Assembly (NCBI GenBank): GCA_001805445.1
Contig: MHGF01000029.1
Location: forward strand, 4,270 to 68,269
DNA: 64,000 nt
Direction: 5' to 3'
Origin: Omnitrophica WOR_2 bacterium GWF2_43_52
GTDB taxonomy: Bacteria > Omnitrophota > Gorgyraeia > Gygaellales > UBA12090
The position numbers and the translations under genes are program-made. The notes below the pieces were generated by a model that made no database searches, had not been told where the DNA came from, and worked only from the letters and a program-made list of their open reading frames with translations. This document shows, piece by piece, positions 27,128 to 48,610 of this stretch; position 1 is the stretch's first letter, and every line of letters begins with the position of its first letter.

Positions 27128-27206
27128 TAAATAAGTATTTAACAACAATTAGCTTATATATGTTGCTGGTGTATGGAGGTACGCCAACAACGTAACTAAT
27201 ATATAA

Positions 27207-27361: not shown

Positions 27362-30300
27362 ATGGTACGTAAGATAATCTCAATAGTAGTAACGATAGGC
27401 TTACTCTTTAACCAAGGCGGGGTTATTTATGCCGCGGGTGAACTTAACCTTTCAAGCTATCTTAGCCAGTTGCATACGAGCCTGGTTAAGCCCGATATCT
27501 TCCGGCCGGTGCACCTGCGCTATTTCTCCTATGACAGCCTGAATAACAGCTACAAGATACTCTTGGATAAAGGAGACTACACCAAGTCACCAAGTCACCA
27601 GGACACCCCCGACGCTTCGGTCGGGGCAGGCAGGTCACCAGAAGAAGATCTCGTGCTCAAGGAAACTGCCCAGGAGTTGATGGACTACTTCCTGATAGGA
27701 GTAACTCTCCCCAATGATACTTTTTGGGTAAACCTAAGGCCTGATGCCCCGGATACCATCATAGACCCTGAGTTAGAGACAACCGATATAGGTAAGATAT
27801 TCCTTGAGGCCGACCTCCAGCTCAAGAAGGATACCGCGAGCTTTACTTCACCCCAAACCCCTGAAGGCAAACAGTATTGGGATAAACTCTATAAAAAGGC
27901 AGGGGAATTATTTGGCTCGGAGAATATTACCATACCTACCTTAACCCGCCCATGGATAGTGCCCAATGAAATCATCGTAAGAGAAACAGATGATTCGGCC
28001 TATGTGTACAAAGCAACGCTTAAGGTGTTGCTGGAAGAAGATTATCTAAAAAGCTCTCAGCCTTCAGCTCTCAGCCCTCAGCAATACAATTTTAAAGATT
28101 CAAGGTTAAAAGAGCTCAATGAATACTCTACCCAGCTTATCAGAGAAACTATAATTCCTAAGCTTACCAGAGAGGTAAACTCAAGCCAAAGGTATGCTAA
28201 GTTACGGCAGGTATACTATTCGCTGATACTTTCAAGATGGTTTAAGGCTCGTTTTAATAGTAAAGAGTCACAAGGTCACCAAGTCACAAGGTCACAAGGA
28301 GAAAATTACATTAATTTAATTGATAGGCGTAATCTCACTAACCTTACCTCAGAAGAACTATGGGATAAGATTACCTATTTTAACCAATACAAAGACTCCT
28401 TCAACAAAGGTGAATATAATATCAAGGAACCTACGTTTACTGCCTACGGCCAGAGTATCAGGAGTTATACCAGCGGGGGGATTGGCATTGGGCAAGCGAT
28501 ATTACCTTTTGAAGCTGATATGCAAGGTCAAGGCGCAGGGAGTCCAATACGGGGAGGAAGTTTTCAAGGGAATAATCCTGTTATTTCTGATGCGGTAATT
28601 GGCGCAGATGAAAAGAGTATAGTTTTAGATGAAAATCTTGAAGTTGTTGAACAGAAGCCTGTTGCCCTCGCCGCCTCGCCGGTGACTGTTGAAGATGCAG
28701 ATCAAAAGATTCTGGATATTCTTGAAGAAGAATTTATTTCAGATATTTTCCCAAAAGATGTGGTAGAGAAGTTTAAAGAATATAAAAGCATTAAAATTAG
28801 CAAATTTAGCAATATTGATAAGGATGTTGGAATGCCCCATGCAAGAAAAGATATAGAGAAATTATCCAGAATAAAAGGCTTTCTTAGGTATGTTATGAAT
28901 GAGTACACTAAAATAAAAGAAAAAGATGAGACCCGAGCGCGGGTACTCCTTAATAAGATAAAAATCTTGCAAGAATATCTAGAACAAGCATTAGGTGGAG
29001 AATTGTCAGTGCTTAAGGAATTTGCCGCTAATATTAATGCTGGAAAAATAACAGTTATTAGCGTTGCCATATTAAAGCAATGGGAAAAATTAATGGCTGA
29101 TATGCTTATTTCTGAAAGATACCACGCATTTGTTAAGCATTTGACTAAGAGAAATATAGAATTCTCTCGGGCAGGGAGCCTGATGAAGATATTGAACTTA
29201 GAAAGAGCAGGTAAGCGCGCCACGCAATTTAAAATTAAAGCTGGAGAGACTCTCGAGAAAAAATATAACCCCGGAGATAAATTTATTTTCAACGATGTTT
29301 TGCCGGATATTGCTTTAGGAATTAACTTTGGGGGGATACTTACTGATATAATAGTAAACGCTAATCCGCTCTTGTGGGGAAATGTGCTTATTCTTCCCGA
29401 TCCCAGTAAGTGCCTTAGCCAATATTTTAACAAAGAAGCAGCGATAGTAGCTCTTAATTTATTGGATAAGTTTAACAACCCGGGTTATAAACTAGGATTT
29501 AATGGCCCTGGGGCTTTTGCTTCTGTCCCTCAACTTCATCTGCAGGGATTTGATTATTTTGACAGCACTGGAGAAGATAAATTGCCCGTAGAAAACGCTG
29601 AAAAAACTTCTTTTTTCAGCAATAACAACGTATCCATTATGACTCTATCAGATTGGGCAGTCAATACCATTGTTTTAAACGGTAGTTCATTAGATTCATT
29701 AAACAAAGCGCTGGTATTACTTACCGATATATTGCATAAACGTAATCAACCGTTTAATATCGTTTTCACAAAAAATAGTGATAACAACTATGCTGTGTAT
29801 GTTTTTCCTAGAAAGCTGGAAGGCCCTGGGGGGGTTTTTGGCACAGGCGTTGCATTTTTAGAGTTAGCCGGAGCAGTATTGTTTACTAATCAGAATTTTG
29901 GCGGAGTGATGTTAAAAGATAAAGATAAAGAAAATCTTGAACAGCGCATAGCTTATCTTAAAAACATACGTCAGATAATATTTGGGGGTGGGACTATTGC
30001 AGAAGACCTCGTTCAGAGTGTTGGACTCGATTGGAAGGATGTTTCCAGCAAATTGATCGAAAATGGTTGGGCGAAGCCAAAAAATAAAACAGAAGTGACT
30101 TTAACAGCAAGTTTGGAACAGGTAAAAGACAGCATGTCAAGAGTTTTTGGTGATAAATGGGAAAAAATTATCTCAATCCTGGAGATTGATGACTTTCGTT
30201 ATGAAAATGAAAAAAACAAAGACGGTGATTATGTTTATTATGCTCGTCCCAAGAGAAGCGGTGAAAGCAAAGAAATTACCCCGTCGGATCTTAGCAATAA

Positions 30301-33300
30301 ATTTATGCACTATATTGATTTATCAAATATAGTGGAAATTCTTTATCAGAAAGCTGGGAGAGAGCCAGAGTTGAGAAAGTATTATGAGAAGATAACAAGC
30401 GAGTTTTATAAGGAAAAATCAGTAGATAATTACAAACAAGCTGAAGAAGATGATTTGCGAAAAGATATTGCCGCCGTGGGGATAGATGATGGCACATTTG
30501 AGAAAATTTTAGAAGTTTATAAAGATCAGTTAGTAAATTTATTCTCTGCCGCCTCGCCGCTGACAACGTTGAAGGAGAAGATAAGCGGGGTGTTCGAGAA
30601 AATACAGGAAAAGATAAATGACCAAGGACTCTTAAATTATAAAGAAGAATTAGCATCATTCTTGGAGAATTTAGAAAAAGATTTAGAAAGGCCGTTAAAT
30701 GAGATAGATAATGTTGTGAACGGGCAAGGCACTCTAAAAGATGCTTTTAGCGCGATTGAAAAAATATCAACTATTCTATTTAATAAGGAAGGTGAAATAG
30801 GCAGTATCCATACCGATATCAAGTCTATGATGGTAAGTTTGCACAGGTATGAACTGCCATCGCTTATGAGGCAAATTGAAAAGAGCCTTGGGCAGAGGGA
30901 AATCACCGCCTCGCCGCTGACGAAACAGACCGTAAAAGATGTACAATTTAACCCAGGAGAAAAGGTGTTCTTGCGCGCTGAGGTTAATATGCCAACCGAT
31001 GAGCAAAGAAATATCACTGACTATACGCGCCTTAAACAGGCGTTACCTACTATCAAATATTTGATAGGACAAGGAGTGAAGCTTGTTATTGCAGGACACC
31101 TGGGCCGGCCGCAGGAGGAGAAAAACAAGGATTTCAGTTTAGATATAGTAGCTCAGGCTCTACGATCTGAGTTGCCAGGAGTAACCATTACATTTGACAA
31201 GACAATCTTTACCCCTAAAGACGCGGAAGGTTTTATTAATTCCGAGATGAAAAACGGGGATATTTTACTTTTAGAAAACGTCCGGATGAATAAAGATGAA
31301 GAACAAAAAGAAGGGATTAATAGCCAATTCGCCAAAGATTTGTTTTTTGGCATAGATAAATATGTTTCAGATGCCTTTGGGGTTATGCATAGAGAAAACA
31401 ATGTTTCAATGGTTGGCGCTCCTAAGGGGATGCCGCGTGTTGCCGGGCTTTTAGTCCAGAAGGAAATAGAGTACCTGAATAAGATTTTGAATCCTGATGT
31501 GGCAATTGTCGGAGGAGCAAAAGTATCCGATAAAATTAAAATAATAGAGAAGCTTTTAGAAAAAGCGGATAAAATTCTTATTGGCGGGGCAATGACATTC
31601 GCTTTTGAAAAAGCCATGGGGAAAGATATTGGCAATTCTAAGCTTGGTAAGAATAAGGAAGAGGCAGAAAGAGAAACGCAATTTGCAAGGCAGCTTCTTG
31701 AAAAGGCGAAAGGAAAAATAATCCTTCCTTTGGATCATATAGTTGCAGATAGATTTAATAATGATGCGGAAAGAAAATCTGCGGAGTCAGGCAAGATCCC
31801 TGACGGCTGGATGGGCTTAGACATTGGCCCTGAGACTATTAAGCATTACAGAGCAATCATTGAGGAGGCGGAAACAGTTATCTGGAACGGCCCTATGGGG
31901 GTATTTGAATTTGATAATTTTGAGCAAGGCACGAGAGTAATAGCCGAGGCAATGGCAGTGGTAAAGAAAAAAGGCGGTATCGCGGTGGTAGGAGGGGGAG
32001 ATTCTGCTTTCGCGGTAGAGAAGTTTGGGCTAGCTGGTGAAATGTCACACGTATCTACAGGAGGAGGCGCGGCCTTAAAGTTTATCGAAGATGATGGCAA
32101 TTTGCCAGGAATTCTAGTGTTAAGTGATAAAGTAGAGGGCATCACCGCCGGCCTGCTGGGAGAAGAAATGTCGGGGGTGTATGGCGAGAATGCGCAGCCT
32201 TTACGCTATGTTTCTGTTGAAGATTTAACTGAGGGGGAACTTAGCTCTTTGAGAAGTTCCATCGTTGAGCGGATGACGTTGTCTGCAAGGGAAACGGATA
32301 ATACATATAAAAATGCGCGCTTTGCGGTTGAAATAGACCAAGGTAAGATTATTGTCTGGGGGAGGTTGGAATATAATGAAAAGACAAATGCAATAAGCCA
32401 GATTATCTTCCCGAACGCTCTAAACCTGAGCGAAGATAAGAAAAAAGATATAGAGGCTGCCTTTATTCAGGCATGGGATGAAGAATCGAAAATAAATGTT
32501 CTTTACACCGCCTCGCCGTTAGAATCTACTCCAGAGATATATGTGTTGGATAATCATCTATCGCTTGCAGAAGGAGCTAAAACCGGGAAGGCTAATATTG
32601 GGCTTGCTAAATCTAGCCTATACGATGGAGGAATTTTAAATCATTCTGAGGAGCGTGCCAGGCTTGAGTGGGCTATAGGGAATGTATTAGGAAGAATACT
32701 TTATTTTGGGTATGAGCGGTTTGACAGTGAACTTAACCGCATGGTTTTTGCTGATGAAGCAGTAGGAATTTGGAAAGCAACTTTAGCAACCGAAGGTATA
32801 TCCGAAACTGATTATAAAGAATATTTTGATCTTCAAAAAGAAAAGGACAAGATTAATCGTGATAATCTGCAAGATAGCGCACGCTCTATAGTGAACAGAA
32901 TAATTAATCTTCAGTTGAAAAAACTAATAGCTTCTACAAAGGGGGAAAAGGGGTATCCAGTCAAACAAGTTGTACTTTGCGTTGGTGAGGATTTAGGTCA
33001 GCGTTACGCAGGGCGGACGCAGGATGTTTTAAGGCAGGACATAAAGGAAATTTTAAAGGACATAATGAAAGAAGATGTGCAGAAATATGGGGGTATTGGT
33101 TTGAGGATAGCCTATGAGCCGCGCTGGGCAATTGGAACAGGCAAAACGCCTACATTGGAAGAGATTCAGAATGCGCATAGATTTATAAAAGATACTCTAA
33201 AAAGCGCAGGAGTACTAGGCATAGAGCTTGATGTTGATTATGGCGGAAGCTTAAACGCAAAGAACAAAGAGATATTATCTTTGCCTGACGTTGACGGTGG

Positions 33301-36229
33301 GCTTATTGGCAGTGCTGCCAAAACCGTTGAGGCAATCAAACCGGTTATAGAGGAAGCGATTATTCAAGGGGAGAAAAAGGGGAAAATCCTCAATATCGGG
33401 ATGAACTGGAAGGCTGAAAATAGAGGAACTGGTTTAGCCCCGCTGGGAAGCTTTATGGCATTTTTCAAGAGCCCTGGTTTTAATATTGTGGGTAAGCTAA
33501 GCATAGCCATTGGAACTACCCGGGTTAGAGATGTTAAAATGGCAGTATTGGGGGTTAAAGAGTATTATAAAAAAATTTACCAAGCAGCCGCCTCGCCGCT
33601 GGCGCTGGAGAATGAAGTGAAGGTGATACAGGAAGTAAGAGAAAAATTAAATGCATATCATAGCGGTACTATACTGCAATTCTCAAACGTATCGCTATCG
33701 AACCTTATAATATCAGTCACAAAGATGGCTAACGAAATTCAGCCAATGAATCGTATGGCTTTACCCGAAGAAGCACAAAAATGGTTTGGTATTGAAGCAG
33801 GGCTTGTACGGATTCAGGCCAAAGTCAGAGAAAATATGGAAGCATATAAAAAAGAGTTGGCAGCTTTTTATGCGGAAATCGGGCAGCATTCATATATTAA
33901 ATTGGATGAAGAGCAGAAATTATACTACACTAATAAATATGCCCGTGATATTGAAACGACGAATGACGTAGATGTAATTATTGAAGCGGCAGAACATGCC
34001 TATCGGCTGCGGGAGACTTATTTAGCGCAAGAGGCACAAAAAAAGATTGTTTCTCAGGGTAATACTTCCGCCGCCTCACCGTTGACGCTTAAGGAATTCT
34101 CTAAAAAGCTTGATCAGATGCCTAATAATAAAGTGTCGTCTCACGAAGCATTTTTAGAATTAATTAAGATGGCATCAGAGCTTTCAGCCCGGGAGGAGAT
34201 ACCGGAAAATATCCAAGAGAAAATATACGCGGCAGTCAGCCGTATCATGCCTGTGGCAGGTGAATATGTTGATAAAGAGCGTAAGGATATCCCCGGGCAG
34301 GCCCGTACTATAGAACCTATCCTGGCTATAATTGAAAGCGGATTAGAAAATTATATGGTTAAAGAGGATATGGGGTTTAAATTAGTGGACGCTATTGAGA
34401 AGGCCTTAACAGGGCATCTTGCCTATTCAAGGTATACACAACAGATAGATGATGTAATAACCGCAATAAAAAAAGATCATATTAAGATAGAAAAGATTCA
34501 AGAGTTTATTAAAGATTCGTTTAGCCAGTATGATGGCATTAAAGATGCGATTGATTTTAAGAGCGGAGAAATCGCGGAGTTGCTTGAGAAAAATAAAGAG
34601 GCTAATGCATTACTCGCGTCAGTAAGGCAGGCAAAGGAGATAACCGCTAAGCAAAGCGGCAATACAATCAAAGGCACGTATATAGACCAATCCCTCTTTG
34701 ACGCTATGGCTTGGGATATAATGATCCAAAGAGTAAGAATCGATAAATTAGAGGAAATTCTGGATGAACAGGTGAGCCGGACGAATCAATTTTTTACCAG
34801 TGATTCTATCAAGCTTTTCTGTAAGGAGTTTAAGGAAGCAGGCAAAACCGGGAAAAAACGCGTATTAGTTTCCAGGTTTAATGAAATCCGGGAAGAGGGC
34901 TCAAGAACCGATAGCGAATTGATCCAGCTAAGAGATTACTTAGCCGGGATTTTAGGAGTATATTATTTAAAAGCGGCTGAGGAGGTAAGAAGCAAGCTTA
35001 CGCCACAGGATACAGTAGAATATAAAGAAGCCCTTGATGCGGCAGGACAAGTTATTGATCTTCTTCTTAAAGGTAACGTAAAGGATCAGTTGTTTTCCGC
35101 GCAATTAGATACCGTTGTCAAGGCGTGGGATAGTATGCAAAAATCCCGTTCATCGTCGGCGCTTACCGCTGAAGAATTTATTCTTGCGGTAGATGCTCTT
35201 GGGAAAATGGCCAAAGAGAAGACGATCTCATATGAAACTGCTTTTGACAGAATGGTAGGAGCGGTTTCGGCTCTTGAAAAAGATGTAGTGGTTCCTTATG
35301 CTAAAATAGCCGATGAGTTGTATTCAATAATTCACAATGGGGTGGCGCTTGACCCTTATAGGTTAACTCTCTGGGAAGATGCCAAAGAAACGTTGTTAAG
35401 AAGGAAGAAATATGCCAGAGAGGGCATTCTTGATATGATTGAAAAAAGATTAGAGATATATAAGCGTGATTTAGCGCAGAAAGCGGGTAAAGATCTTAGC
35501 AAGTGGATAGGCGCGCTCACCGCTCACTTAGGCGCAGGTATCCGCGACTATAAAGAACACATAAACTCTATTAAAAGTACTGAGGATTTATTGTTGACTA
35601 AGGTTCAAGAGTTTTCTTCGGTCAATCGAGCGGTACAGAAGAAAGAATGGTCTGATGATAAAGAGAAGTATTATGAAGCTATGAAAAGGAAAGGCGTTTC
35701 TATTGACGAATTGAAAGGGAAATTGGATGAGATAGATAAATATAACGAATTCCTCTTAACAGTAGCTAAAGCGCGAGAAGCCATCTCTGCCGGCCAAAAA
35801 TCGTCTTCGTCGTCGCTTGTCGCTCAAGAGCCTGCTCAAGACTTTGCTATCCCTGAAGCCCAAAATACCTTCGGTGGTATTGATATGACCGACAGGGCGC
35901 TGCATATTAACTTTGAGCGCTGGGGAAGCCTTGCGGATATAGAGATGGAGCTGCCAAAACTCAGTCATGTGGAAGCGATTGATTTAGACAATGAATACCA
36001 GCAGATACAGGCCATGGCCTCATCCGGCATCAGGCCTTCAGATACGCGTATTTTGGAGTTTATCGCCGCCTGCTATTATAGGGAAGAATTTAGCCAAAGG
36101 CTTTCTGAAATCACCGCCTGCCTTAAAGAAGCGCATGCCTTGGATGAGCGTGAGGGAAAAGAAAGCAGCGAGACCCTGCGTTTAGCCACCTTGCTCCCTG
36201 ATGCGTTGTACGTAAATAGCCTGAATTAA
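27362..36229 (+). CDS. Giant secreted multidomain protein (~2,955 aa) containing a phosphoglycerate-kinase domain and a triosephosphate-isomerase-like domain
   Basis: RBS AGGAGG precedes the ATG at 27362. A signal peptide (MVRKIISIVVTIGLLFNQGGVIYA) is present. The PGK motifs are HLGRPQ, IVGGAKVSDKIKIIEKLLEKADKILIGGAMTFAF, GGGDS and STGGGA. The TIM motifs are AYEPRWAIGTGKTPT and YGGSLN...VDGGLIGSAA. The conserved N- and C-terminal domains are shared with the 813-aa paralog. Confidence 0.8.
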   Translation: MVRKIISIVVTIGLLFNQGGVIYAAGELNLSSYLSQLHTSLVKPDIFRPVHLRYFSYDSLNNSYKILLDKGDYTKSPSHQDTPDASVGAGRSPEEDLVLKETAQELMDYFLIGVTLPNDTFWVNLRPDAPDTIIDPELETTDIGKIFLEADLQLKKDTASFTSPQTPEGKQYWDKLYKKAGELFGSENITIPTLTRPWIVPNEIIVRETDDSAYVYKATLKVLLEEDYLKSSQPSALSPQQYNFKDSRLKELNEYSTQLIRETIIPKLTREVNSSQRYAKLRQVYYSLILSRWFKARFNSKESQGHQVTRSQGENYINLIDRRNLTNLTSEELWDKITYFNQYKDSFNKGEYNIKEPTFTAYGQSIRSYTSGGIGIGQAILPFEADMQGQGAGSPIRGGSFQGNNPVISDAVIGADEKSIVLDENLEVVEQKPVALAASPVTVEDADQKILDILEEEFISDIFPKDVVEKFKEYKSIKISKFSNIDKDVGMPHARKDIEKLSRIKGFLRYVMNEYTKIKEKDETRARVLLNKIKILQEYLEQALGGELSVLKEFAANINAGKITVISVAILKQWEKLMADMLISERYHAFVKHLTKRNIEFSRAGSLMKILNLERAGKRATQFKIKAGETLEKKYNPGDKFIFNDVLPDIALGINFGGILTDIIVNANPLLWGNVLILPDPSKCLSQYFNKEAAIVALNLLDKFNNPGYKLGFNGPGAFASVPQLHLQGFDYFDSTGEDKLPVENAEKTSFFSNNNVSIMTLSDWAVNTIVLNGSSLDSLNKALVLLTDILHKRNQPFNIVFTKNSDNNYAVYVFPRKLEGPGGVFGTGVAFLELAGAVLFTNQNFGGVMLKDKDKENLEQRIAYLKNIRQIIFGGGTIAEDLVQSVGLDWKDVSSKLIENGWAKPKNKTEVTLTASLEQVKDSMSRVFGDKWEKIISILEIDDFRYENEKNKDGDYVYYARPKRSGESKEITPSDLSNKFMHYIDLSNIVEILYQKAGREPELRKYYEKITSEFYKEKSVDNYKQAEEDDLRKDIAAVGIDDGTFEKILEVYKDQLVNLFSAASPLTTLKEKISGVFEKIQEKINDQGLLNYKEELASFLENLEKDLERPLNEIDNVVNGQGTLKDAFSAIEKISTILFNKEGEIGSIHTDIKSMMVSLHRYELPSLMRQIEKSLGQREITASPLTKQTVKDVQFNPGEKVFLRAEVNMPTDEQRNITDYTRLKQALPTIKYLIGQGVKLVIAGHLGRPQEEKNKDFSLDIVAQALRSELPGVTITFDKTIFTPKDAEGFINSEMKNGDILLLENVRMNKDEEQKEGINSQFAKDLFFGIDKYVSDAFGVMHRENNVSMVGAPKGMPRVAGLLVQKEIEYLNKILNPDVAIVGGAKVSDKIKIIEKLLEKADKILIGGAMTFAFEKAMGKDIGNSKLGKNKEEAERETQFARQLLEKAKGKIILPLDHIVADRFNNDAERKSAESGKIPDGWMGLDIGPETIKHYRAIIEEAETVIWNGPMGVFEFDNFEQGTRVIAEAMAVVKKKGGIAVVGGGDSAFAVEKFGLAGEMSHVSTGGGAALKFIEDDGNLPGILVLSDKVEGITAGLLGEEMSGVYGENAQPLRYVSVEDLTEGELSSLRSSIVERMTLSARETDNTYKNARFAVEIDQGKIIVWGRLEYNEKTNAISQIIFPNALNLSEDKKKDIEAAFIQAWDEESKINVLYTASPLESTPEIYVLDNHLSLAEGAKTGKANIGLAKSSLYDGGILNHSEERARLEWAIGNVLGRILYFGYERFDSELNRMVFADEAVGIWKATLATEGISETDYKEYFDLQKEKDKINRDNLQDSARSIVNRIINLQLKKLIASTKGEKGYPVKQVVLCVGEDLGQRYAGRTQDVLRQDIKEILKDIMKEDVQKYGGIGLRIAYEPRWAIGTGKTPTLEEIQNAHRFIKDTLKSAGVLGIELDVDYGGSLNAKNKEILSLPDVDGGLIGSAAKTVEAIKPVIEEAIIQGEKKGKILNIGMNWKAENRGTGLAPLGSFMAFFKSPGFNIVGKLSIAIGTTRVRDVKMAVLGVKEYYKKIYQAAASPLALENEVKVIQEVREKLNAYHSGTILQFSNVSLSNLIISVTKMANEIQPMNRMALPEEAQKWFGIEAGLVRIQAKVRENMEAYKKELAAFYAEIGQHSYIKLDEEQKLYYTNKYARDIETTNDVDVIIEAAEHAYRLRETYLAQEAQKKIVSQGNTSAASPLTLKEFSKKLDQMPNNKVSSHEAFLELIKMASELSAREEIPENIQEKIYAAVSRIMPVAGEYVDKERKDIPGQARTIEPILAIIESGLENYMVKEDMGFKLVDAIEKALTGHLAYSRYTQQIDDVITAIKKDHIKIEKIQEFIKDSFSQYDGIKDAIDFKSGEIAELLEKNKEANALLASVRQAKEITAKQSGNTIKGTYIDQSLFDAMAWDIMIQRVRIDKLEEILDEQVSRTNQFFTSDSIKLFCKEFKEAGKTGKKRVLVSRFNEIREEGSRTDSELIQLRDYLAGILGVYYLKAAEEVRSKLTPQDTVEYKEALDAAGQVIDLLLKGNVKDQLFSAQLDTVVKAWDSMQKSRSSSALTAEEFILAVDALGKMAKEKTISYETAFDRMVGAVSALEKDVVVPYAKIADELYSIIHNGVALDPYRLTLWEDAKETLLRRKKYAREGILDMIEKRLEIYKRDLAQKAGKDLSKWIGALTAHLGAGIRDYKEHINSIKSTEDLLLTKVQEFSSVNRAVQKKEWSDDKEKYYEAMKRKGVSIDELKGKLDEIDKYNEFLLTVAKAREAISAGQKSSSSSLVAQEPAQDFAIPEAQNTFGGIDMTDRALHINFERWGSLADIEMELPKLSHVEAIDLDNEYQQIQAMASSGIRPSDTRILEFIAACYYREEFSQRLSEITACLKEAHALDEREGKESSETLRLATLLPDALYVNSLN

Positions 36230-36239
36230 CCGATAGCTA

Positions 36240-36385
36240 CCAATGCCCGCCAATGCCAGGCATAGTCAAGTAAGAATTGTTAATGCCTGGTATCTTAGTG
36301 TTATCAGTGCCAGACATATACAACGCGTAAACAACTTGCCTATGCCTGGCACTGTCTATTTATAGATGCCAGGCATTGCTCTTTT
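36240..36385. repeat. Dispersed copies of the palindromic motif (A)TGCCAGGCAT downstream of the giant gene
   Basis: aatgccaggcat, aatgcctggtat, agtgccagacat, atgcctggcact and atgccaggcatt, spaced about 25-30 nt apart. Confidence 0.5.
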
Positions 36386-36403
36386 TTTAGCAGAAAAAAT
36401 ATT

Positions 36404-36436
36404 TGACAAAAGAAGAAAATATGTTACATTATAGGC
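36404..36436 (+). promoter_or_regulatory. Candidate sigma-70 promoter for the ATP synthase operon
   Basis: ttgaca-N16-tacatt, about 150 nt upstream of the first atp gene. Confidence 0.3.
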
Positions 36437-36580
36437 ACGTTATGAGGCTATAAAGACAAGGGTGTCTAAAAAGGCTATGTGTGCCTTAAAAGCTAAACCT
36501 AAAGTTTAGTACCCCGCACCCGTAATAGTAGTAATCCCAAAAGGTTACACTTCTGCTTTAATACTTAACAGGCGAGGCAT

Positions 36581-36826: not shown

Positions 36827-36828
36827 GC

Positions 36829-37224
36829 GTGGAGATCTCTTTTATCTACAAGTCGCTCAAAGTAAGCTTTTGGTTTACTCTACTGCTTTCATTATTTTCT
36901 CTTTATTATTTCGGCCAAAAATTCACATTAGGCTTAATCAGCGGCTCTTTCTGGAGTATAGCTAATTTTTTGCTTTTTGTTGGGCTTTCAAAAGCTTTTA
37001 CGGATATTGCTCATAACAAGCTGAAGATAGCCTTGTATGCTTTTATTAAGTTTGGAGCGCTTTATATTACAGGTTATTTGATTATATCATCGTCTAAGGT
37101 TTCATTGCCCGGTATCAGTGTGGGGTTTGGCATCATTTTTACGGTGATTTTTCTGCAGGCAATAGGAATGGTGTTTGCCTCGTTGGAGACTACAGCGCAA
37201 CCGGAAAAATTAAAATGTCTCTGA
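36829..37224 (+). CDS. atpI: ATP synthase protein I-like membrane protein
   Basis: 131 aa with 4 TM segments and a GTG start. Lies between the atpZ-like gene and atpB. Confidence 0.5.
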   Translation: MEISFIYKSLKVSFWFTLLLSLFSLYYFGQKFTLGLISGSFWSIANFLLFVGLSKAFTDIAHNKLKIALYAFIKFGALYITGYLIISSSKVSLPGISVGFGIIFTVIFLQAIGMVFASLETTAQPEKLKCL

Positions 37225-37251
37225 CGGGGTTTACTCAAAAAGAGGTGCCTT

Positions 37252-38073
37252 GTGTCAGGCTCTGAAAGCTCCTCACAGGAATTAGCAAATTTTATCGGTA
37301 TCACGGTTAAAGGTTTAGGTGATTCAGGCCTTGGGATATTCCTTCATCGCTGGGAAAATGTGATTTTTTCCTTGATAGCGGTGGTGTTTCTATCTCTTAT
37401 GGCTTACTTTGCCCAGCGTAACCGCTCTTTTGTCCCTGAGCGAAGGCTCCAGAATATGGTTGAGGTACTGGTTGAGAGTTTAAGTAATTTTGTCTCCGGG
37501 GTCCTGGGTGAAAAAGAAGGCAGGCATTATCTTCCGTATATAGGCACGCTTTTTCTCTATATCTTAATTATGAATTTTATGGGTATGGTGCCGGGAATGA
37601 AATCGCCCACGTCCAGCCTGAACACGACTGTGGCACTTGCGCTTTGCACCTTTATCTACGTGCAATATACCGGGATACGGAGGCTGGGAATGATCGGCTA
37701 TCTTGACCATATGGCAGGAAGCCCGCGCATGCCTGAGGAAAAAGGCGTTTTTAAAATATTCTTAATTTTACTGTTTATTCCTATCCATATCCTTTTATTC
37801 ATTATCCATATTATTGGCGAGTTTGTAAAACCAGTAAGCTTATCCCTGCGTCTTTTTGGGAATATTACCGGTGAAGACGCGCTTTTGTATGTGTTTGTTA
37901 TGTTGGGGCTTTCAATGTTTTCTGCCTGGAAAAGTCCCGTAGGGTTCCCTCTGCAGATACCGATAATGTTTTTGTCGTTAATCGGGGGGGCGGTGCAGGC
38001 AATGGTCTTTAGCCTGCTTTCGGCAGTGTATATCTCGATGATGCTTCCGCATCATGAAGAAGTGAAACATTAA
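37252..38073 (+). CDS. atpB: F0F1 ATP synthase subunit a
   Basis: 273 aa. Conserved Arg within LSLRLFGNI. Confidence 0.85.
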   Translation: MSGSESSSQELANFIGITVKGLGDSGLGIFLHRWENVIFSLIAVVFLSLMAYFAQRNRSFVPERRLQNMVEVLVESLSNFVSGVLGEKEGRHYLPYIGTLFLYILIMNFMGMVPGMKSPTSSLNTTVALALCTFIYVQYTGIRRLGMIGYLDHMAGSPRMPEEKGVFKIFLILLFIPIHILLFIIHIIGEFVKPVSLSLRLFGNITGEDALLYVFVMLGLSMFSAWKSPVGFPLQIPIMFLSLIGGAVQAMVFSLLSAVYISMMLPHHEEVKH

Positions 38074-38096
38074 TAAGAAAGGAGAAACGTAAAAAA

Positions 38097-38339
38097 ATGG
38101 ATGCAAATACAGCATTAGCACTTTCTTTGCCGTTTGGATTGGCAATCGCCGCGCTGGCAAGTGCCTTCGCGTTGGGCAGGGCAGTGTCGGCAGCAATGGA
38201 TGCCATGGCGCGCCAGCCTGAGGCAGCCCCGAAAATTCAGGTGGCGATGATTATCGGATGCGCTTTTATTGAAGCATTGACGATTTACGCGTTTGTTATC
38301 GCGTTTCTTTCAATGGCAAAGATACAGGCGGTTCATTAA
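38097..38339 (+). CDS. atpE: F0F1 ATP synthase subunit c
   Basis: 80 aa hairpin protein. Within IEALTIYAFVIAF, the E of IEAL is the proton-binding carboxylate. Confidence 0.85.
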   Translation: MDANTALALSLPFGLAIAALASAFALGRAVSAAMDAMARQPEAAPKIQVAMIIGCAFIEALTIYAFVIAFLSMAKIQAVH

Positions 38340-38340
38340 T

Positions 38341-38440
38341 CTACAATGTAGGGCTACGCGAATAAACGCGAATAAAAAGATTGAGAATATTCGCGAATTA
38401 AAATTCGCGTAAATTTACGTAACAATGTAAAGTTGTTTCA
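38341..38440. repeat. Palindromic array with the variant core CGCGAAT/ATTCGCG
   Basis: acgcgaat aaacgcgaat ... attcgcgaat taaaattcgcgt aaatttacgt. An ACAATGTA direct repeat flanks the array at both ends. Confidence 0.55.
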
Positions 38441-38469
38441 TTGCAGTAACTTTTTAGTAAGGCACGAAC

Positions 38470-38955
38470 ATGATGAATCTTGATTTTCAACAGGTACTTA
38501 CCCAAGCCGTAGGTTTTCTCATCCTTTTGGGGCTGCTCAAGCTGTTTTTCTGGAAGCCGGTCATATCTTTACTTGACCAGAGGAAAGAAAAGATAGCCGC
38601 GGAGTTTAAACACATTGAGGACGCCAAGGCAGAGCTTGCTACATTAAAGGCTGAATATGAAACAAGGCTTGCCTCAATTGAGGAAATCGCCCGGCAGAAG
38701 ATAAAAGAGGCTGTTGAAGAAGGAAAAAGAATAACCGATGAGTTGAAGTCCAAGGCTGAGGAGCAGGCACGCCAGATAATAGAAAGTGGCCGGGAGAATA
38801 TCAGGCAGGAGCTCTTAAAGACAAAGCAGGAATTAAAAAGCCATATCGTGGATTTGGCGTTAAGGGCTACTGAGAGTATTATCCTTGAGAAACTCACGGC
38901 AGATCATGACAAGAAGCTGGTTGAAGATTTTCTTGACAAGATAGACAGGGCCTGA
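38470..38955 (+). CDS. atpF: F0F1 ATP synthase subunit b
   Basis: N-terminal TM segment followed by a long charged coiled coil. Confidence 0.8.
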   Translation: MMNLDFQQVLTQAVGFLILLGLLKLFFWKPVISLLDQRKEKIAAEFKHIEDAKAELATLKAEYETRLASIEEIARQKIKEAVEEGKRITDELKSKAEEQARQIIESGRENIRQELLKTKQELKSHIVDLALRATESIILEKLTADHDKKLVEDFLDKIDRA

Positions 38956-39016
38956 TGAACCCCGCGCCTTCTAAAATGTTTAAAAGATTAAAAATGAATA
39001 AGAACGAAGGTGCGGG

Positions 39017-39565
39017 GTGAAGGACGATGTGCTAGCAAAGAGATACGCCGATGCCTTTTTAAGCTATGCCTGCCAGGGCCTAAGTGAAGAAAAGGCGCTT
39101 GACGATTTTAAAAAGGCAAGGGAAATTCTCTTAGAGAATAAAGAGCTTATTCTTGATTTCTTGGAAGCTCCGGCAGTAACCGTGCTTGAGAAAAACGCCT
39201 TTATTGATAAGTTCTTTGGCGAGGGCTTCTCAGAAGAGTTCCGGCAGTTTTTAAAATTTCTTTTAAAGAAAAACAGGATCGACAAACTCTGGGATGTCGC
39301 GGAATATGTCAGGGTCGCCTATTCTCACGGCAAAAGCGTAAGGGCGCTGCTTAAGACGAGTTTTCCTTTAGATTTGGAATTGGTCCAGTTGATTATTGAC
39401 AGCCTGGAGAGAAAGTTCCAGAGAAAAATCAAACTGTATATAGAGCTTGACGGCGAGCTGTTAGGGGGAGTTAAGGTGGTCATAGGCAACAAGGTAATTG
39501 ATGGGTCCGTGAAAAGGCGTATTGAAAGGCTTAAAGAACGATTTGAAACACTAAGGACTGCGTAA
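39017..39565 (+). CDS. atpH: F0F1 ATP synthase subunit delta
   Basis: 182 aa OSCP/delta-like protein, positioned between atpF and atpA. Confidence 0.75.
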
Positions 39566-39566
39566 A

Positions 39567-41096
39567 ATGGCGATAAAACCGGAAGAAGTAACATCAATAC
39601 TCAAGAAAGAATTAGAAAAGTACCGTTCAAAGATTGAGGTGGAGTCGGTTGGTACCGTAATCCAGGTGGGAGATACTATTGCCCGCGTCTATGGCCTGGA
39701 TGATGTGATGATGGGTGAACTGGTGCAATTCCCCGGCGGGATTATGGGAATGGTGTTAAACTTGGAAGAAAATAGCGTGGGTGTGGTTATCTTCGGGACT
39801 GACAATGCTGATATGACTATCCGCGAGGGGGATATTGTCAAGCGCACAGGAAAAATTGTCCAGGTCCCTGTGGGTAATGCCCTGGTGGGACGGGTAGTAA
39901 ACGCGCTGGGAAGCCCGATTGACGGTAAAGGCGCCGTGGTTACGGATAAATATCGGCCTCTTGAAGCAGGCGCCCCTAATGTCATTGACCGTCAGCCGGT
40001 AAAAGAGCCGCTTGAAACCGGCATCAAGGCAATTGATTCAATGATTCCTATCGGTAGAGGGCAAAGAGAGTTGATTATCGGCGACCGCCAGACAGGAAAA
40101 ACCGCGATTGTTATTGATACTATCATCAATCAAAAAGGAAAAGGCGTTTACTGTATCTATGTGGCGATAGGCCAGAAGATGTCAAGTGTGGTGGCTATAC
40201 ATGAACTTCTGAAGACCTATGGGGCAATGGAATATACTACTATCGTCAGCGCCTCAAGCCGGGCATCAGCATCGTTACAGTATTTAGCGCCGTACGCTGG
40301 ATGCGCGATAGGCGAAGAGATGATGTATTCGGGAAAGCATGTGCTAGTGATTTATGATGACCTTTCTAAGCATGCCCAGAGCTATCGGCAGCTGTCGTTA
40401 CTTTTAAGGCGCCCACCGGGAAGAGAGGCATATCCCGGTGACGTGTTTTATCTGCATTCCCGCCTTTTAGAGAGGGCGGCAAAGCTCAAGGATTCCTTAG
40501 GCGGAGGCTCGCTTACCGCGTTACCTATAATTGAGACACAGGCCGGAGATATCACCAGCTATATCCCGACTAATGTTATTTCAATTACTGACGGCCAGAT
40601 TTACCTTGAGAATGACCTATTTTATTCAGGGGTGCGCCCGGCTATAAACGTGGGGCTATCCGTTTCAAGAGTCGGAGGCAAGGCCCAGATAAAGGCAATG
40701 CGCCAGGTGGCCGCGAAGCTGCGCCTTGACCTGGCCCAATACAGGGAATTGGCGGCGTTTGCCCAATTCGGAAGCGAATTGGATAAGACTACCCAGATGC
40801 AGCTGACCCGCGGGGAGAAGATGGTTGAAATACTCAAACAGGCGCAGTTTGTGCCGCTTCCGGTGGCAAGGCAGATTTTGATTATTTATTGCGGCACGCG
40901 CGGGTTTCTTGACGATTTGCCGATACACTTACTCAAGGATTTTGAGGCCAAAATCTTCGCGCATATCGAGAAGGAATATCCTGACCTTGAGTATGAGATT
41001 GAGAATAAAAAAGAATTAAGCCCTGATTTGATGAAAAAGCTTGATGAGATAATTGCTTCGTTCAAGCAGTATTTCAAAGGCACAGGCGCAAGCTAA
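39567..41096 (+). CDS. atpA: F0F1 ATP synthase subunit alpha
   Basis: 509 aa. Walker A GDRQTGKT. Confidence 0.95.
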
Positions 41097-41110
41097 CCGC
41101 ATTCAGTCGT

Positions 41111-43382
<2,272 letters not shown>

Positions 43383-43386
43383 GATA

Positions 43387-43644
43387 ATGGAAAAAGACTT
43401 TTTACTTACCATACTTTGCCCGGATAAAAAATTATACGAAGGGAGAATCAAGTCGTTAATAGTGCCTTCTGAATTAGGGTATCTTGGTGTCCTCGCTAAC
43501 CACGCCCCGCTTATCACTAACCTTGTTCCCGGAAAAATCACCATCCGCAATCCATCCGATGAGATAACCGTACTTCATGCTCACGGTAAAGGCTTCTTAG
43601 AAGTTTTTAAGAATAACGTCACCCTCCTCGTAAGCGCCGCCTGA
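43387..43644 (+). CDS. atpC: F0F1 ATP synthase subunit epsilon
   Basis: The ATG lies 4 nt after the atpD stop and the product has an epsilon beta-sandwich N-terminus. The tracked ORF starting at 43351 is an in-frame upstream extension overlapping atpD. Confidence 0.8.
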   Translation: MEKDFLLTILCPDKKLYEGRIKSLIVPSELGYLGVLANHAPLITNLVPGKITIRNPSDEITVLHAHGKGFLEVFKNNVTLLVSAA

Positions 43645-43715
43645 TGCGCTTAACCACGTTCATTTAATTATAATAGTCTAAAGAATTGACAGCGTCTCTG
43701 GACACTAAAAAACAA

Positions 43716-43748
43716 AAAAGCCCTTTATCCAAGGGCCCTTTTGGAGGC
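43716..43748 (+). terminator. Rho-independent terminator after the ATP synthase operon
   Basis: aaaaagccctttatccaagggccctttt. A second hairpin plus T-run (tagcgcttgtcgcta ttttttt) follows at about 43758-43785. Confidence 0.6.
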
Positions 43749-44206
43749 TATAAACCTCTAGCGCTTGTCGCTATTTTTTTCCTCCTTTATTTATGAGTTC
43801 TTAGGGATTGTTGCTTTAGGGAGGCAGTTCCCCAAGACTTTTAGAAAACTTGTAACTAAAGTATGCCATAAGAAAACAAAAAAACAAGGGGTAAAAAGCC
43901 ATTTTTAGAAAGCGTTTTCTCGGTGTTTGAAATAATGAAAACTTGGATAAACGAATTCAGGCGGATGGTTACGGATGTCGCGGATAAAAAAATCTGTTTG
44001 CATTCGTGTATTTAATCAATGCGCAAAAATCTATTCTGATTCATTGGTAAATAAAATATTACAAAAAGTGCTTACAACAAAATCGGGAAAGCTTCCTTGA
44101 TTTTGGTTGACAAGCTTACCTTTTATGCTATCCTAAAATAAATAGATTTATAAAATAACGCTGCGGTAATGATAAGAATTAATTTCATAACAGGAAGGCG
44201 CGCTGA

Positions 44207-45844
<1,638 letters not shown>

Positions 45845-46168
45845 TCGCGAATTTTCTATCTTCTTTCTCCGTTATTGTTATCCTGCCTAGTTAAGATCTC
45901 CCTCCTCGCTTGCCTGCCGGCAGGTAAGCCGAGGCAAAATCTCTAATCCAGAGGAATATATTTTTCTCTCCATTAAAAGAAAGGTTTTCGATAATTTTTG
46001 CCTCAGTCGGCCGGATAATTAAGTTATTGCCTTATTAAAGAAAACGCTTTCCCGAAACCCCTGTTTTAGCCTTGTAATCCTAAGAATCGAGGGTATACTT
46101 TAATTACCAATTGAAAACTCAAAAAAGTTTATGTTTTCCTCTAAAACAATTTTTAGGAGATATGGCCA

Positions 46169-48610
46169 ATGCTAAAAAAGACGATAGCCGTTTTTTTATC
46201 TTTTAACTTCCTCTTCACCCAATGCCTTTTTGCCCAAGGCGTAGCCCAACTTAATATAGGAAGCTACCTGCGTACTGCAACGAGCAGTATGGCAGTGGAT
46301 AAATTCCGCCCTGTGCATATGCGTTATTTCTCCTATGATATAGCAACGGATAAGTTTGAAATGCTTTTGGATAAGGGAGACAATAAGGATATAAAGGAAG
46401 ATGAGCTTAAGGATAAGTCTAAAGCATTGATGGAGTATTTTCAGATTGGATTATCTTTGCCTAACGATAAGTTTTGGGTGAACTTGAGGCCGGATGCGGA
46501 AGACCAGATAATTGATCCGGAACTGGAAAAGACTGATGTGGGCAAGATTATGCTTGAGGCTGACCTGCAGTTAAAGAAAGACACCGCAAGTTTTACTTCG
46601 CCTCAAACTCCGGAAGGAAAAGAATATTGGGATAAGTTGTATAAAAAAGCAGGTGAGCTCTTCGGAACAGAAAATATCACTATCCCCACTATAACCCGTC
46701 CCTGGATAGTCCCGGGGGAGATAATTATAAGAGAAGGGGAAGATTCTGGTTCGACTTCGCTCACCACAAGCGCCTATATCTACAAGGCGAATATGAAGGT
46801 GATGTTAGAGCAGGATCACCTTCAGGGGACAGGGGGAAGAGTTCAGGGGATAGATTACAGTTTTAAGGACCCACGAATGAAGGAATTGAATGAATATTCC
46901 TCACAGTTAATCCGGGAACTGATTATCCCTAAGCTGACCAAAGAGGTAAATATCTCCAAAAGATACGCCGCTCTTCGGCAGGTATTCTTTTCCTTGGTAA
47001 TGGCTCGCTGGTTTAAGGATAATTTCACCGGAAAACCCGGCACCTACGCCAGCCTGATTGACAGCCATAACCTTAATGATATTAGCTCTCAAGAACCCTG
47101 GTCAAAGACTGTTTATTTCAACCAATACAAGGAGTCTTTTGCCAAGGGCGAATATAACCTCAAAGAGCAGGTAGCCACTCCCTATGGACAGACGATTCGA
47201 AGTTATGTGAGCGGGGGAGTTGTGATGAATTTCGCTAAGAACATATACGAAGGAGGTAAGAAATTATTCTTGCCTGTTTTGTTTGCAGGAGTCTCAAATT
47301 TATCTCTTTTTGCTGGTAATGGTGATACGGGAGCAATGAGAAAGGTGGGGGCTGAAGAATATTCTGTAAGGCAAGAGAAGGCATTAACAGTGGCTAATTA
47401 TCTTAGAGCAAAGAAAGAAACGCAGGATAATATTAGAGCATTTACGCGCGATCTCGAAAAAAAATTTCCTCTTAGCCCCCAGATTATTAGGAAAATCCAA
47501 GAATATATTATTGGTTTTTCTTCAAAAGTTCTCAGTTTAAGTCCTCAAGACTCGAGAGAGAAAAGAATAGGAGATATCCTAAAAGATATAAGAGAAGAAT
47601 TCGGACAAGATTATCCAATTACAGGTATGAATGAATCTCTGGAAGGAATACTCAATCCGCTAGATACACTTGCAAATGAAAATAACTCTATAGAGCTTAA
47701 TGAGGCAATAAGATTAGCGATAAGACAAGCTACGTTAGATTTAAGGTCATCAATTGAACGAAGTCTTAAGGAGAGAACAGGCTCTTCGCCTCTTGCGGAG
47801 AAAGAAAAGATATCGAGGCAAATTTGGCTGGCTATGGCTGATTTGAAAAAGCTGCTTAATGATTTGGATGGAAAGATTACGCCTGAGGATATGAAGCCAG
47901 CCCAGGTACCTTTTGGTCCGGAGGTGCCAACGGTAAGATCTCCTGAGAGGGCTGTAAATATATTGCTTAATCTTATAGCGGATTATTTAAAAGATATGAA
48001 TAGTATTCCATCAGGCCTGGATACTTTCATAAGGATAATGGAAAACTATCGTGATAAGGACTTAAAAGAGGTTTTAGAAAAATATAAGTTTGTGGATAAG
48101 CTTAATCAAATTATTGAGAAGCTTAGCCCTAAGCAAAAAGATGCGGTTTCTCCGGAGGTGAGCATAGAAGCAACTCGGGAGAAGCAGGCAGCAAGCCCTC
48201 TTGCAGGTAGTGAGCCCTCTAGAGATACCTTAGGCGGTATTGACTTTCGTGCCATGAATTACCTCACGCAGCCGATGGGTAGTTTTCAGGGGCTTAATTT
48301 TACCCTGCCTCTGCTTAGCAGCAGCGCTCTTGAGGCAATAGACTTGGATGAAGAATTAGACCAGATAACGAATATGGCCATGCAGGGGATAATTCCTTCC
48401 GGCCAAAGGATAAAGGAGTATTTGGCTGCTTGCTTCCAGAAAGGCAAGATTGAGGATAAACAGGAATACTTGCTCTTATGCTTAGTTGAGGTCTGCCGCC
48501 TGCTTGAGGATGAGAATATGGAGAGCGCACCTGAGCTTCGGGAAGCCATAGTCATTGCCGATTCAGGGAGGTTTGTCTTGCAAGCAAAAGAGAATATTTC
48601 GCTGAATTAG
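46169..48610 (+). CDS. Secreted 813-aa paralog of the giant protein (shared N- and C-terminal domains, unrelated middle)
   Basis: Signal peptide MLKKTIAVFLSFNFLFTQCLFAQG. The N-terminal ~380 aa are about 60% identical to the giant protein (FRPVH(L/M)RYFSYD, WVNLRPDA, LEADLQLKKDTASFTSPQTPEGK, YWDKLYKKAGELFG). The C-terminal domain begins GGID and ends SLN in both proteins. Confidence 0.7.
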   Translation: MLKKTIAVFLSFNFLFTQCLFAQGVAQLNIGSYLRTATSSMAVDKFRPVHMRYFSYDIATDKFEMLLDKGDNKDIKEDELKDKSKALMEYFQIGLSLPNDKFWVNLRPDAEDQIIDPELEKTDVGKIMLEADLQLKKDTASFTSPQTPEGKEYWDKLYKKAGELFGTENITIPTITRPWIVPGEIIIREGEDSGSTSLTTSAYIYKANMKVMLEQDHLQGTGGRVQGIDYSFKDPRMKELNEYSSQLIRELIIPKLTKEVNISKRYAALRQVFFSLVMARWFKDNFTGKPGTYASLIDSHNLNDISSQEPWSKTVYFNQYKESFAKGEYNLKEQVATPYGQTIRSYVSGGVVMNFAKNIYEGGKKLFLPVLFAGVSNLSLFAGNGDTGAMRKVGAEEYSVRQEKALTVANYLRAKKETQDNIRAFTRDLEKKFPLSPQIIRKIQEYIIGFSSKVLSLSPQDSREKRIGDILKDIREEFGQDYPITGMNESLEGILNPLDTLANENNSIELNEAIRLAIRQATLDLRSSIERSLKERTGSSPLAEKEKISRQIWLAMADLKKLLNDLDGKITPEDMKPAQVPFGPEVPTVRSPERAVNILLNLIADYLKDMNSIPSGLDTFIRIMENYRDKDLKEVLEKYKFVDKLNQIIEKLSPKQKDAVSPEVSIEATREKQAASPLAGSEPSRDTLGGIDFRAMNYLTQPMGSFQGLNFTLPLLSSSALEAIDLDEELDQITNMAMQGIIPSGQRIKEYLAACFQKGKIEDKQEYLLLCLVEVCRLLEDENMESAPELREAIVIADSGRFVLQAKENISLN

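What the first reader, a model, noticed from the sequence alone, without database searches (positions are those of the whole stretch)
27362..48610. Two-member family of secreted proteins with conserved N- and C-terminal domains and unrelated, size-variable middles (2,955 aa and 813 aa)
Both proteins begin with a signal peptide followed by a ~380-aa domain about 60% identical between them (FRPVH[LM]RYFSYD, WVNLRPDA..D.IIDPELE.TD.GKI.LEADLQLKKDTASFTSPQTPEGK.YWDKLYKKAGELFG.ENITIPT.TRPWIVP). Both end with a ~120-aa domain that starts GGID and ends ...SLN. I do not recognise either terminal domain as a described family. The architecture of conserved ends with a shuffled middle is what is typically seen in surface, adhesin or effector families.
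Basis: seen in the sequence. Interest (0 to 1): 0.7.

Follow-up and report, generated by a model that had tools for sequence, protein, structure and literature searches.

The report
Modular secreted cargo-carrier proteins of Omnitrophota
The two genes belong to a very large, undescribed protein family found in the uncultured bacterial phylum Omnitrophota: each protein has a signal for export, fixed pieces at both ends that are predicted to clamp together, and an interchangeable middle, often built from copies of ordinary metabolic enzymes such as phosphoglycerate kinase and triosephosphate isomerase.

Summary
P0001 (window 27362-36229, 2955 aa from an ATG with an AGGAGG ribosome-binding site) and P0002 (46169-48610, 813 aa) both begin with a Sec-type signal peptide and a conserved N-domain (51% identical over 442 aa) and end with a conserved C-domain of about 125 aa that runs from GGID to ...SLN. 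The middle of P0001 carries a full-length phosphoglycerate kinase (PGK) and a triosephosphate isomerase (TIM) module, while the middle of P0002 has no annotation. Neither end domain matches Pfam, NCBIfam or PDB, or shows a structural match outside the family. The family is Omnitrophota-specific and very large: 7,704 representatives at 50% identity, about 15 paralogs in this genome, and members up to about 9,000 aa. The middles are mosaics of modules shared between paralogs and homologs. The module boundaries sit at a linker motif, A/T-A-S-P-L-T, encoded by a conserved GC-rich DNA word (GCCGCCTCGCCGCTGAC), which points to exchange of modules by recombination. Cargo modules include PGK (captured at least twice independently), TIM (possibly circularly permuted), GAPDH, cupin-type glucose-6-phosphate isomerase, PPDK, a glutamate dehydrogenase with its domains in swapped order, M23 peptidase, GNAT and NUDIX enzymes. 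The N- and C-domains are predicted to dock onto each other through their invariant motifs, closing a bracket from which the cargo hangs. Best reading: an exported carrier that displays or delivers enzyme cargo, with the cargo reshuffled at DNA-level junctions.

The parts
27362..36229 (+). P0001: family member, 2955 aa (ORF open to 27206, but start at 27362 by SD and homologs)
27362..27436 (+). P0001 Sec-type signal peptide (res 53-77 of ORF)
   Evidence: hydrophobic core 53-76; homolog N-termini conserved
27437..28669 (+). P0001 conserved N-domain (about 380 aa; novel fold; invariant FWVNLRPD and TRPWIVP motifs)
28670..28684 (+). junction linker ASPV encoded by GCCGCCTCGCCG (first of six in P0001: 28670, 30548, 30905, 32507, 33587, 34070)
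28670..30547 (+). module A (res 489-1115); part 605-989 shared with homologs P0013/P0018/P0051
30548..30904 (+). module B (res 1115-1234), shared with P0078 at 55% identity; bounded by junctions
30905..32506 (+). PGK module (Pfam PGK at res 1244-1628, full length; KVSDK, GGGD, WNGP, HLGRP motifs kept)
32507..33586 (+). TIM-like module (TIM res ~70-251 incl. HSE and AYEPxWAIGTG motifs, then a downstream NWK-like motif: possible circular permutation); shared with paralog on C28 (44%) and P0089
33587..34069 (+). module (res 2128-2289) shared with P0071 at 39%
34070..35784 (+). module (res 2289-~2860), unannotated
35785..36229 (+). P0001 S/T-rich linker plus conserved C-domain (GGID at 35873; 5-helix bundle)
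46169..48610 (+). P0002: family member, 813 aa
46169..46240 (+). P0002 signal peptide
   Evidence: conserved in homologs
46241..47398 (+). P0002 conserved N-domain
47399..48187 (+). P0002 variable middle (no Pfam; weak helical-repeat-like structural hits only)
48188..48202 (+). junction linker AASPL (other codons: GCAGCAAGCCCTCTT)
48203..48610 (+). P0002 C-domain (GGIDF at 48233 ... ENISLN)

Best explanation
P0001 and P0002 are members of a large Omnitrophota-specific family of Sec-exported modular proteins. Each has a conserved N-terminal carrier domain after the signal peptide and a conserved C-terminal domain. The two are predicted to dock onto each other through their invariant motifs, forming one bracket, with everything in between looping out as variable cargo. 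The cargo is built from interchangeable modules separated by a short linker (A/T-A-S-P-L-T). That linker is encoded by a conserved GC-rich DNA word, which most likely acts as a homology anchor that lets modules be swapped among the many paralogs by recombination. Cargo modules are often whole or partial copies of cytoplasmic enzymes, especially central-carbon enzymes (PGK, TIM, GAPDH, glucose-6-phosphate isomerase, PPDK, glutamate dehydrogenase), plus classic effector-type enzymes (M23 peptidase, GNAT, NUDIX). The likely function is to export enzymatically active cargo to the cell surface or to the host/partner cell that these ultra-small, host-dependent bacteria live on. Shown: architecture, signal peptides, family size and distribution, module sharing at junctions, the conserved junction DNA, the enzyme identities of the cargo. 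Predicted only: the N/C docking. Inferred: export destination and function.
For: Conserved signal peptide plus N-domain in thousands of members. Conserved C-domain starting GGIDFR in most homologs. Middles vary: PGK, TIM, GAPDH, GPI, PPDK, GDH, NUDIX, GNAT, M23, DnaJ, HEAT, TPR, guanylate kinase. Modules shared between different members are bounded exactly by the ASPL junctions (P0001 1115-1234 ~ P0078; 1768-2128 ~ C28 paralog and P0089; 2128-2289 ~ P0071). The junction DNA is identical at synonymous sites (10 junctions use GCCGCCTCGCCG), about 0.3% expected per junction from codon usage. The 11-mer occurs only in family genes in this genome and recurs in other Omnitrophota loci. The PGK cargo of P0001 and that of P0096 are only 32% identical to each other, so PGK entered the family at least twice. 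Predicted complex of N-domain and C-domain: score 0.61 vs best control 0.01; contacts agree across runs; partner pLDDT >= 73. The interface is built from the invariant FWVNLRPD and TRPWIVP (N) and GGIDFR and E121 (C) motifs.
Against: No direct evidence on localisation, processing or cargo activity. The N/C bracket is a prediction. Many cargo modules are fragments (TIM C-half, PrmA fragment, partial GNAT/M23) or unannotated, which is not what one expects if every cargo is a working enzyme. The junction motif is absent from several members, so it is not the only exchange route. No dedicated secretion partner or immunity gene was found beside members (unannotated neighbours only).
Confidence: 0.5

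Rival explanations
1. Diversity generator for surface proteins: the shuffled middles are mainly antigenic or structural spacers. Captured gene pieces serve as raw material, and most cargo is non-functional, as in contingency or antigenic-variation loci.
For: Many cargos are fragments or possibly permuted (TIM C-half plus a downstream NWK-like motif; GDH domains in swapped order; PrmA fragment). Module exchange at conserved junction DNA. Many paralogs per genome.
Against: The PGK cargo in P0001 is full length with its motifs kept. PGK was captured independently at least twice, and central-carbon enzymes recur as cargo, which suggests selection for enzyme function rather than random spacers.
Confidence: 0.25
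2. Interbacterial or host-directed polymorphic toxin/effector system, with M23, GNAT, NUDIX and other cargos as the toxic payload.
For: M23 peptidase, GNAT acetyltransferase and NUDIX are classic polymorphic-toxin and effector domains. The architecture is modular with a signal peptide.
Against: The variable part is internal, not C-terminal. Cargos are dominated by housekeeping metabolic enzymes. No cognate immunity genes or delivery apparatus were found next to members (unannotated).
Confidence: 0.15
3. Assembly or annotation artefact (chimeric contigs or fused genes).
For: Paralog-rich regions break the assembly (several members at contig ends).
Against: Hundreds of independent assemblies show the same architecture. 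Logan contigs from four independent runs cover P0001 in long pieces (4947 and 4172 bp). There are intact ORFs with SD sites.
Confidence: 0.03

Closest known systems
MARTX toxins (Vibrio RtxA)
   Same: Conserved N- and C-terminal regions flank a variable array of interchangeable modules that differ between strains and are reshuffled by recombination.
   Different: MARTX are T1SS-exported (no Sec signal peptide), carry glycine-rich repeats and an internal cysteine protease domain that releases effectors; none was found here. MARTX cargos are host-targeting toxins, not copies of glycolytic enzymes.
Polymorphic toxins (CdiA, Rhs) with junction motifs (VENN, PxxxxDPxGL)
   Same: Modules are exchanged at a conserved motif whose DNA acts as a recombination anchor; some cargo domain types overlap (M23, GNAT, NUDIX).
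   Different: In those systems the variable toxin is C-terminal and paired with immunity genes; here the C-terminus is a conserved domain and the cargo is internal.
Inteins (Hint domain)
   Same: N- and C-terminal parts flank an inserted domain and are predicted to fold together into one unit.
   Different: No splicing nucleophiles or Hint motifs; the N-domain (~350 aa) and C-domain (~110 aa) are unrelated in sequence to Hint; no self-excision predicted.
Type IX secretion CTD cargo (Bacteroidota)
   Same: Sec signal peptide, variable cargo, conserved C-terminal domain.
   Different: The T9SS CTD is an Ig-like beta-sandwich; this C-domain is a 5-helix bundle, not matched by T9SS models. This family also has a large conserved N-domain.
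Surface 'moonlighting' glycolytic enzymes (GAPDH, PGK, TIM on streptococcal surfaces) and the PGK-TIM fusion (Thermotoga; NCBIfam PRK13962)
   Same: The same enzymes appear outside their usual cytoplasmic context. P0001's PGK region best fits the bifunctional PGK/TIM model.
   Different: Here the enzymes are fused into a dedicated Sec-exported carrier rather than exported leaderless; the TIM module is separate and possibly permuted.

Membership tests
MARTX toxin | Internal cysteine protease domain (CPD, Peptidase_C80) for autoprocessing | tested here: not met
   No such Pfam/NCBIfam hit in P0001 or P0002
MARTX toxin | T1SS export without Sec signal peptide; glycine-rich repeat regions at both ends | tested here: not met
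   Sec-type signal peptides present; no tandem repeat arrays beyond short coding repeats
Polymorphic toxin (CdiA/Rhs type) | Variable toxin domain at the C-terminus with a cognate immunity gene downstream | tested here: not met
   C-terminus is a conserved domain in nearly all members; variable part is internal; downstream neighbours are unrelated housekeeping genes
Intein / Hint | Hint domain with N-terminal Cys/Ser and C-terminal His-Asn-(Cys/Ser/Thr) splice junctions | tested here: not met
   No Hint Pfam match; C-terminus ends ...SLN with no downstream extein
T9SS CTD cargo | C-terminal Ig-like beta-sandwich CTD (TIGR04183/PF18962) | tested here: not met
   No match; predicted C-domain is all-helical
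Undescribed Omnitrophota modular carrier family (this work) | Signal peptide plus N-domain with invariant FWVNLRPD and TRPWIVP motifs; C-domain beginning GGIDFR; variable middle | tested here: met
   Alignments A1 and A2; P0001 and P0002 both carry both domains
Known fold for the N- or C-domain | Structural match to a solved or atlas-annotated domain | tested here: inconclusive
   Foldseek PDB, VIA-wide and atlas found no match outside the family; a weak or missing match does not show a new fold

The most novel reading that the evidence does not exclude
A dedicated Omnitrophota system that repeatedly captures copies of central-metabolism enzymes (PGK, TIM, GAPDH, glucose-6-phosphate isomerase, PPDK, GDH) into a Sec-exported N/C bracket. 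The episymbiont would then deploy active glycolytic enzymes outside its own cytoplasm, at or into its host, to tap or redirect host metabolism. Some cargos are circularly permuted, which may hint at capture through a circular or tandem-duplicated DNA intermediate.
Probability: 0.2. Interest if true: 0.85.

Novelty: new variant of a known kind. Interest (0 to 1): 0.65.

Why it matters
This family has thousands of members and up to about 15 or more paralogs per genome in a phylum of ultra-small, host-dependent bacteria, yet it has no Pfam or structural description. It would be a major, unrecognised part of how Omnitrophota deal with their hosts or partners. The combination of features makes two open questions testable: how episymbionts manipulate their hosts, and how protein modules are acquired and reshuffled. 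Those features are a conserved export carrier whose two ends clamp together, cargo swapped at a DNA-encoded junction, and repeated, independent capture of glycolytic enzymes (sometimes permuted). If the cargo enzymes are active outside the cell or in a host, it would be a new strategy of metabolic interference.

Tried and rejected
Pfam found no family for P0002 or for either terminal domain, and NCBIfam found none for P0002. A PDB sequence-profile search gave only chance-level hits (Penton protein E 0.7 for the N-domain; PPR repeat E 1e-4 over 38 residues for the C-domain). These were rejected as not covering the domains. Foldseek and VIA-align gave no structural match. The VIA run was dominated by the signal-peptide helix, so the N-domain fold is not fully tested and would need the domain without its signal peptide. 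The atlas hits were only Omnitrophota clusters, one automatically mis-named 'RecJ fragment'. I tested TIM circular permutation by rotated alignments: the HSE region matched with Z about 3-4, but the N-terminal part only by the NWK hexapeptide (Z under 1), so the permutation is not established. A Mantel test of N- against C-domain identity among paralogs had too few usable members (6) to say anything. A sequencing-run search found DNA holders in groundwater and soil metagenomes but no RNA holder listed; this says nothing on expression. Laying Logan contigs showed breaks at 27608 and 28299-28303. They mapped to exact 30-mers elsewhere in the genome (C23, C34, C19), so they are shared short repeats, not population variants. 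The break after the NWK motif (33406-33414) remains unexplained. A scan of gene neighbourhoods found no conserved partner gene next to paralogs (neighbours not annotated).
Full report
The finding is real. P0001 is an ORF at window 27206-36229 (+). P0002 is 46169-48610 (+), 813 aa, with AGGAGA upstream. BLASTP gives 51% identity over 442 aa for the N-terminal region, E 5e-133, and 35% over 168 aa for the C-terminal region. Both begin with a Sec-type signal peptide and both end with a ~125-aa domain from GGID to ...SLN. The middles differ. Pfam puts a full-length phosphoglycerate kinase (res 1244-1628, E 1.5e-122) and the C-terminal half of triosephosphate isomerase (1921-2049) in P0001's middle, and finds nothing in P0002. 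NCBIfam places the P0001 PGK region closest to the bifunctional PGK/TIM model PRK13962.

The genome (G000; 2.47 Mb, 40 contigs) carries its own canonical pgk-tpi operon on another contig. P0001's PGK is only 42% identical to it, and 45-48% to many Clostridia and other bacterial PGKs. The PGK cargo of another family member, P0096, is 32% identical to P0001's, so PGK was captured into the family at least twice, not copied once from the host operon. The genome's name was not given; the family's distribution implies it is an Omnitrophota genome.

The family is large and limited to Omnitrophota. A protein search found at least 564 homologs, all named ones 'Candidatus Omnitrophota'. A scan of GTDB genome contigs found 404 encoding stretches, all in Omnitrophota MAGs or in MAGs labelled 'uncultured Planctomycetales' or 'bacterium'. 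An HMM search of 1.84 billion 50%-cluster representatives returned 7,704 hits at E ≤ 1e-3 (6,408 at ≤ 1e-30), with lengths up to 6,439 aa. In a sample of 401 Omnitrophota genomes, 115 carry it, often in several copies. This genome has about 15 paralogs of 613-3007 aa on many contigs, several broken at contig ends. A 6.4-kb contig that is one open frame is a piece of yet another paralog.

Neither end domain is a described family. There were no Pfam or NCBIfam hits. Profile searches of the PDB sequences gave nothing meaningful. An AlphaFold model of the N-domain from a 41-sequence alignment (pLDDT 75.6, pTM 0.68; mixed alpha/beta) had no Foldseek, VIA-align or atlas match outside the family. The C-domain model is a well-predicted 5-helix bundle (pLDDT 80; 95+ in the core) with no significant match. 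The N-domain alignment has many invariant residues, grouped in motifs such as FWVNLRPD and TRPWIVP. The C-domain alignment's most conserved stretch is GGIDFR, plus R88 and E121. A predicted complex of the N-domain (P0002 25-350) with the C-domain scored 0.61 against a best control of 0.01; contacts agreed in at least 89% across runs and partner pLDDT was at least 73. The predicted interface is made precisely of those invariant motifs on both sides. So the two conserved ends probably form one composite unit, a bracket from which the variable middle loops out. This is a prediction; it has not been measured.

The middles are modular. Short A/T-A-S-P-L-T linkers recur at module boundaries: six in P0001 (res 489, 1115, 1234, 1768, 2128, 2289), one in P0002 before the C-domain (674), and others in paralogs. 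All-against-all BLAST shows that modules shared with other family members start and stop at these linkers. P0001 1115-1234 matches P0078 (55%). P0001 1768-2128, the TIM-like module, matches a paralog on contig C28 (44%) and P0089. P0001 2128-2289 matches P0071. Module 605-989 matches P0013, P0018 and P0051, which carry the new Pfam families PF26216 and PF26217; these are absent from our Pfam copy. The linker DNA is conserved at synonymous sites: ten junctions in six paralogs read GCCGCCTCGCCG(C/G/T)TGAC. From the genome's codon usage, about 0.3% of AASP codon sets would be GCC-GCC-TCG-CCG by chance. The 11-mer CCGCCTCGCCG occurs 12 times in the genome, all in family genes or a family fragment. 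It recurs in homologous loci of other Omnitrophota. Flanking DNA diverges within a few codons. This is the pattern expected if short identical junction sequences act as anchors for recombination between paralogs, as the VENN and DPxG motifs do in CdiA and Rhs polymorphic toxins. The junction is not universal: several members lack it, so it is not the only exchange route.

Cargo content is notable. In this genome it includes PGK plus a TIM-like module in P0001, NUDIX, a PrmA methyltransferase fragment, GNAT plus M23 peptidase, and M23. In homologs it includes GAPDH (both halves), cupin-type glucose-6-phosphate isomerase (three proteins), pyruvate-phosphate dikinase, glutamate dehydrogenase (catalytic domain before the dimerisation domain, i.e. 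swapped order), guanylate kinase, DnaJ, HEAT, TPR, FHA, HD, acyl-carrier, MraZ, mTERF and N-terminal Asn amidohydrolase.

P0001's TIM-like module holds TIM residues ~70-251 with the His (NHSEER, Z ≈ 3-4 vs shuffles) and Glu (AYEPRWAIGTG) motifs. An NWK-like motif, the TIM active-site Lys motif, follows about 20 residues after the TIM C-terminus. The order His-Glu-Lys would fit a circularly permuted TIM barrel. However, the N-terminal part matches only at the hexapeptide level, so the permutation is a possibility, not a finding. The PGK cargo keeps the canonical motifs (HLGRP, KVSDK, GGGD, WNGP, STGGGA), with D→E at the DFN site.

Mechanism, in order of support. Shown: Sec-type signal peptides; conserved N- and C-domains; a variable modular middle; module boundaries at a linker encoded by conserved junction DNA; modules shared among members; cargos that are often housekeeping enzymes, some captured more than once. 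Predicted: N/C docking into a bracket. Inferred: these are exported carriers that display or deliver enzyme cargo, plausibly at the interface with the host or partner cells on which ultra-small Omnitrophota depend. The module repertoire is diversified by recombination at the junctions. I rate the whole statement at about 0.5. Rivals are a surface-antigen diversity generator with largely non-functional cargo (0.25; supported by the many fragments and permutations), a polymorphic toxin system (0.15; some cargo domains are classic effectors, but the C-terminus is conserved and no immunity genes were seen), and an assembly artefact (0.03; rejected by hundreds of independent assemblies and by Logan contigs covering P0001 in long pieces in four independent runs).

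Comparison with known systems follows. It works like MARTX toxins (conserved ends around a shuffled effector array) and like CdiA/Rhs polymorphic toxins (exchange at a conserved junction). It also resembles intein halves folding around an insertion, and T9SS cargo with a conserved C-terminal targeting domain. Its cargo echoes moonlighting surface glycolytic enzymes. It fails defining tests of each family: no cysteine protease domain, Sec export, internal rather than C-terminal variability, no Hint motifs, and a helical rather than beta-sandwich CTD. I therefore file it as an undescribed Omnitrophota family that is a new variant of the known 'modular polymorphic secreted protein' kind, not as a member of any of these families.

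Things noticed in passing: the members sit among ordinary housekeeping operons (gltB/gltD/glnN, F-type ATP synthase, pyrG). Short coding tandem repeats lie inside P0001 N-domain insertions. Logan contig breaks at 27608 and 28299-28303 are caused by short sequences shared with other genome loci.

Noticed in passing
window 17317-26081 and 36829-45844: P0001 lies just downstream of glnN (type III glutamine synthetase), gltB and gltD, and upstream of an F-type ATP synthase operon. P0002 lies just after pyrG (CTP synthase). The members sit among housekeeping operons rather than in a mobile island.
   Followed up: partly
window 28052-28082 and 28267-28299: Short coding tandem repeats (14-mer x2.2; GTCACAAG x4) inside low-complexity insertions of the P0001 N-domain that P0002 lacks. 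30-mers next to them occur exactly at G000 C23:125450, C23:127756 and C34:129649, and break Logan contigs there.
   Followed up: partly
window 33406-33414: Logan contigs in two runs break just after the TIM NWK-like motif, with a loose end not found in the genome. This may be a population variant or a missing paralog at a module boundary.
   Followed up: no
window 36342-36390: A 24-bp unit repeated twice in the intergenic region just downstream of P0001.
   Followed up: no
window 28702-29478 (-), 30303-30659 (-), 30637-31017 (-), 31153-31635 (-): Antisense ORFs inside P0001, most likely spurious.
   Followed up: no
G000 contig C5 (6,412 bp): The whole contig is one open reading frame with ASPL junction linkers. 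It is a piece of another family paralog's middle; the paralog count in this genome is underestimated.
   Followed up: yes
homologs P0013, P0018, P0051: They carry new Pfam families PF26216 and PF26217 (not in the Pfam copy used here) on the module that P0001 shares at residues 605-989. These new Pfam entries may already describe one of the cargo modules.
   Followed up: partly
homolog P0082: Glutamate dehydrogenase cargo with the catalytic domain before the dimerisation domain, i.e. swapped domain order.
   Followed up: partly
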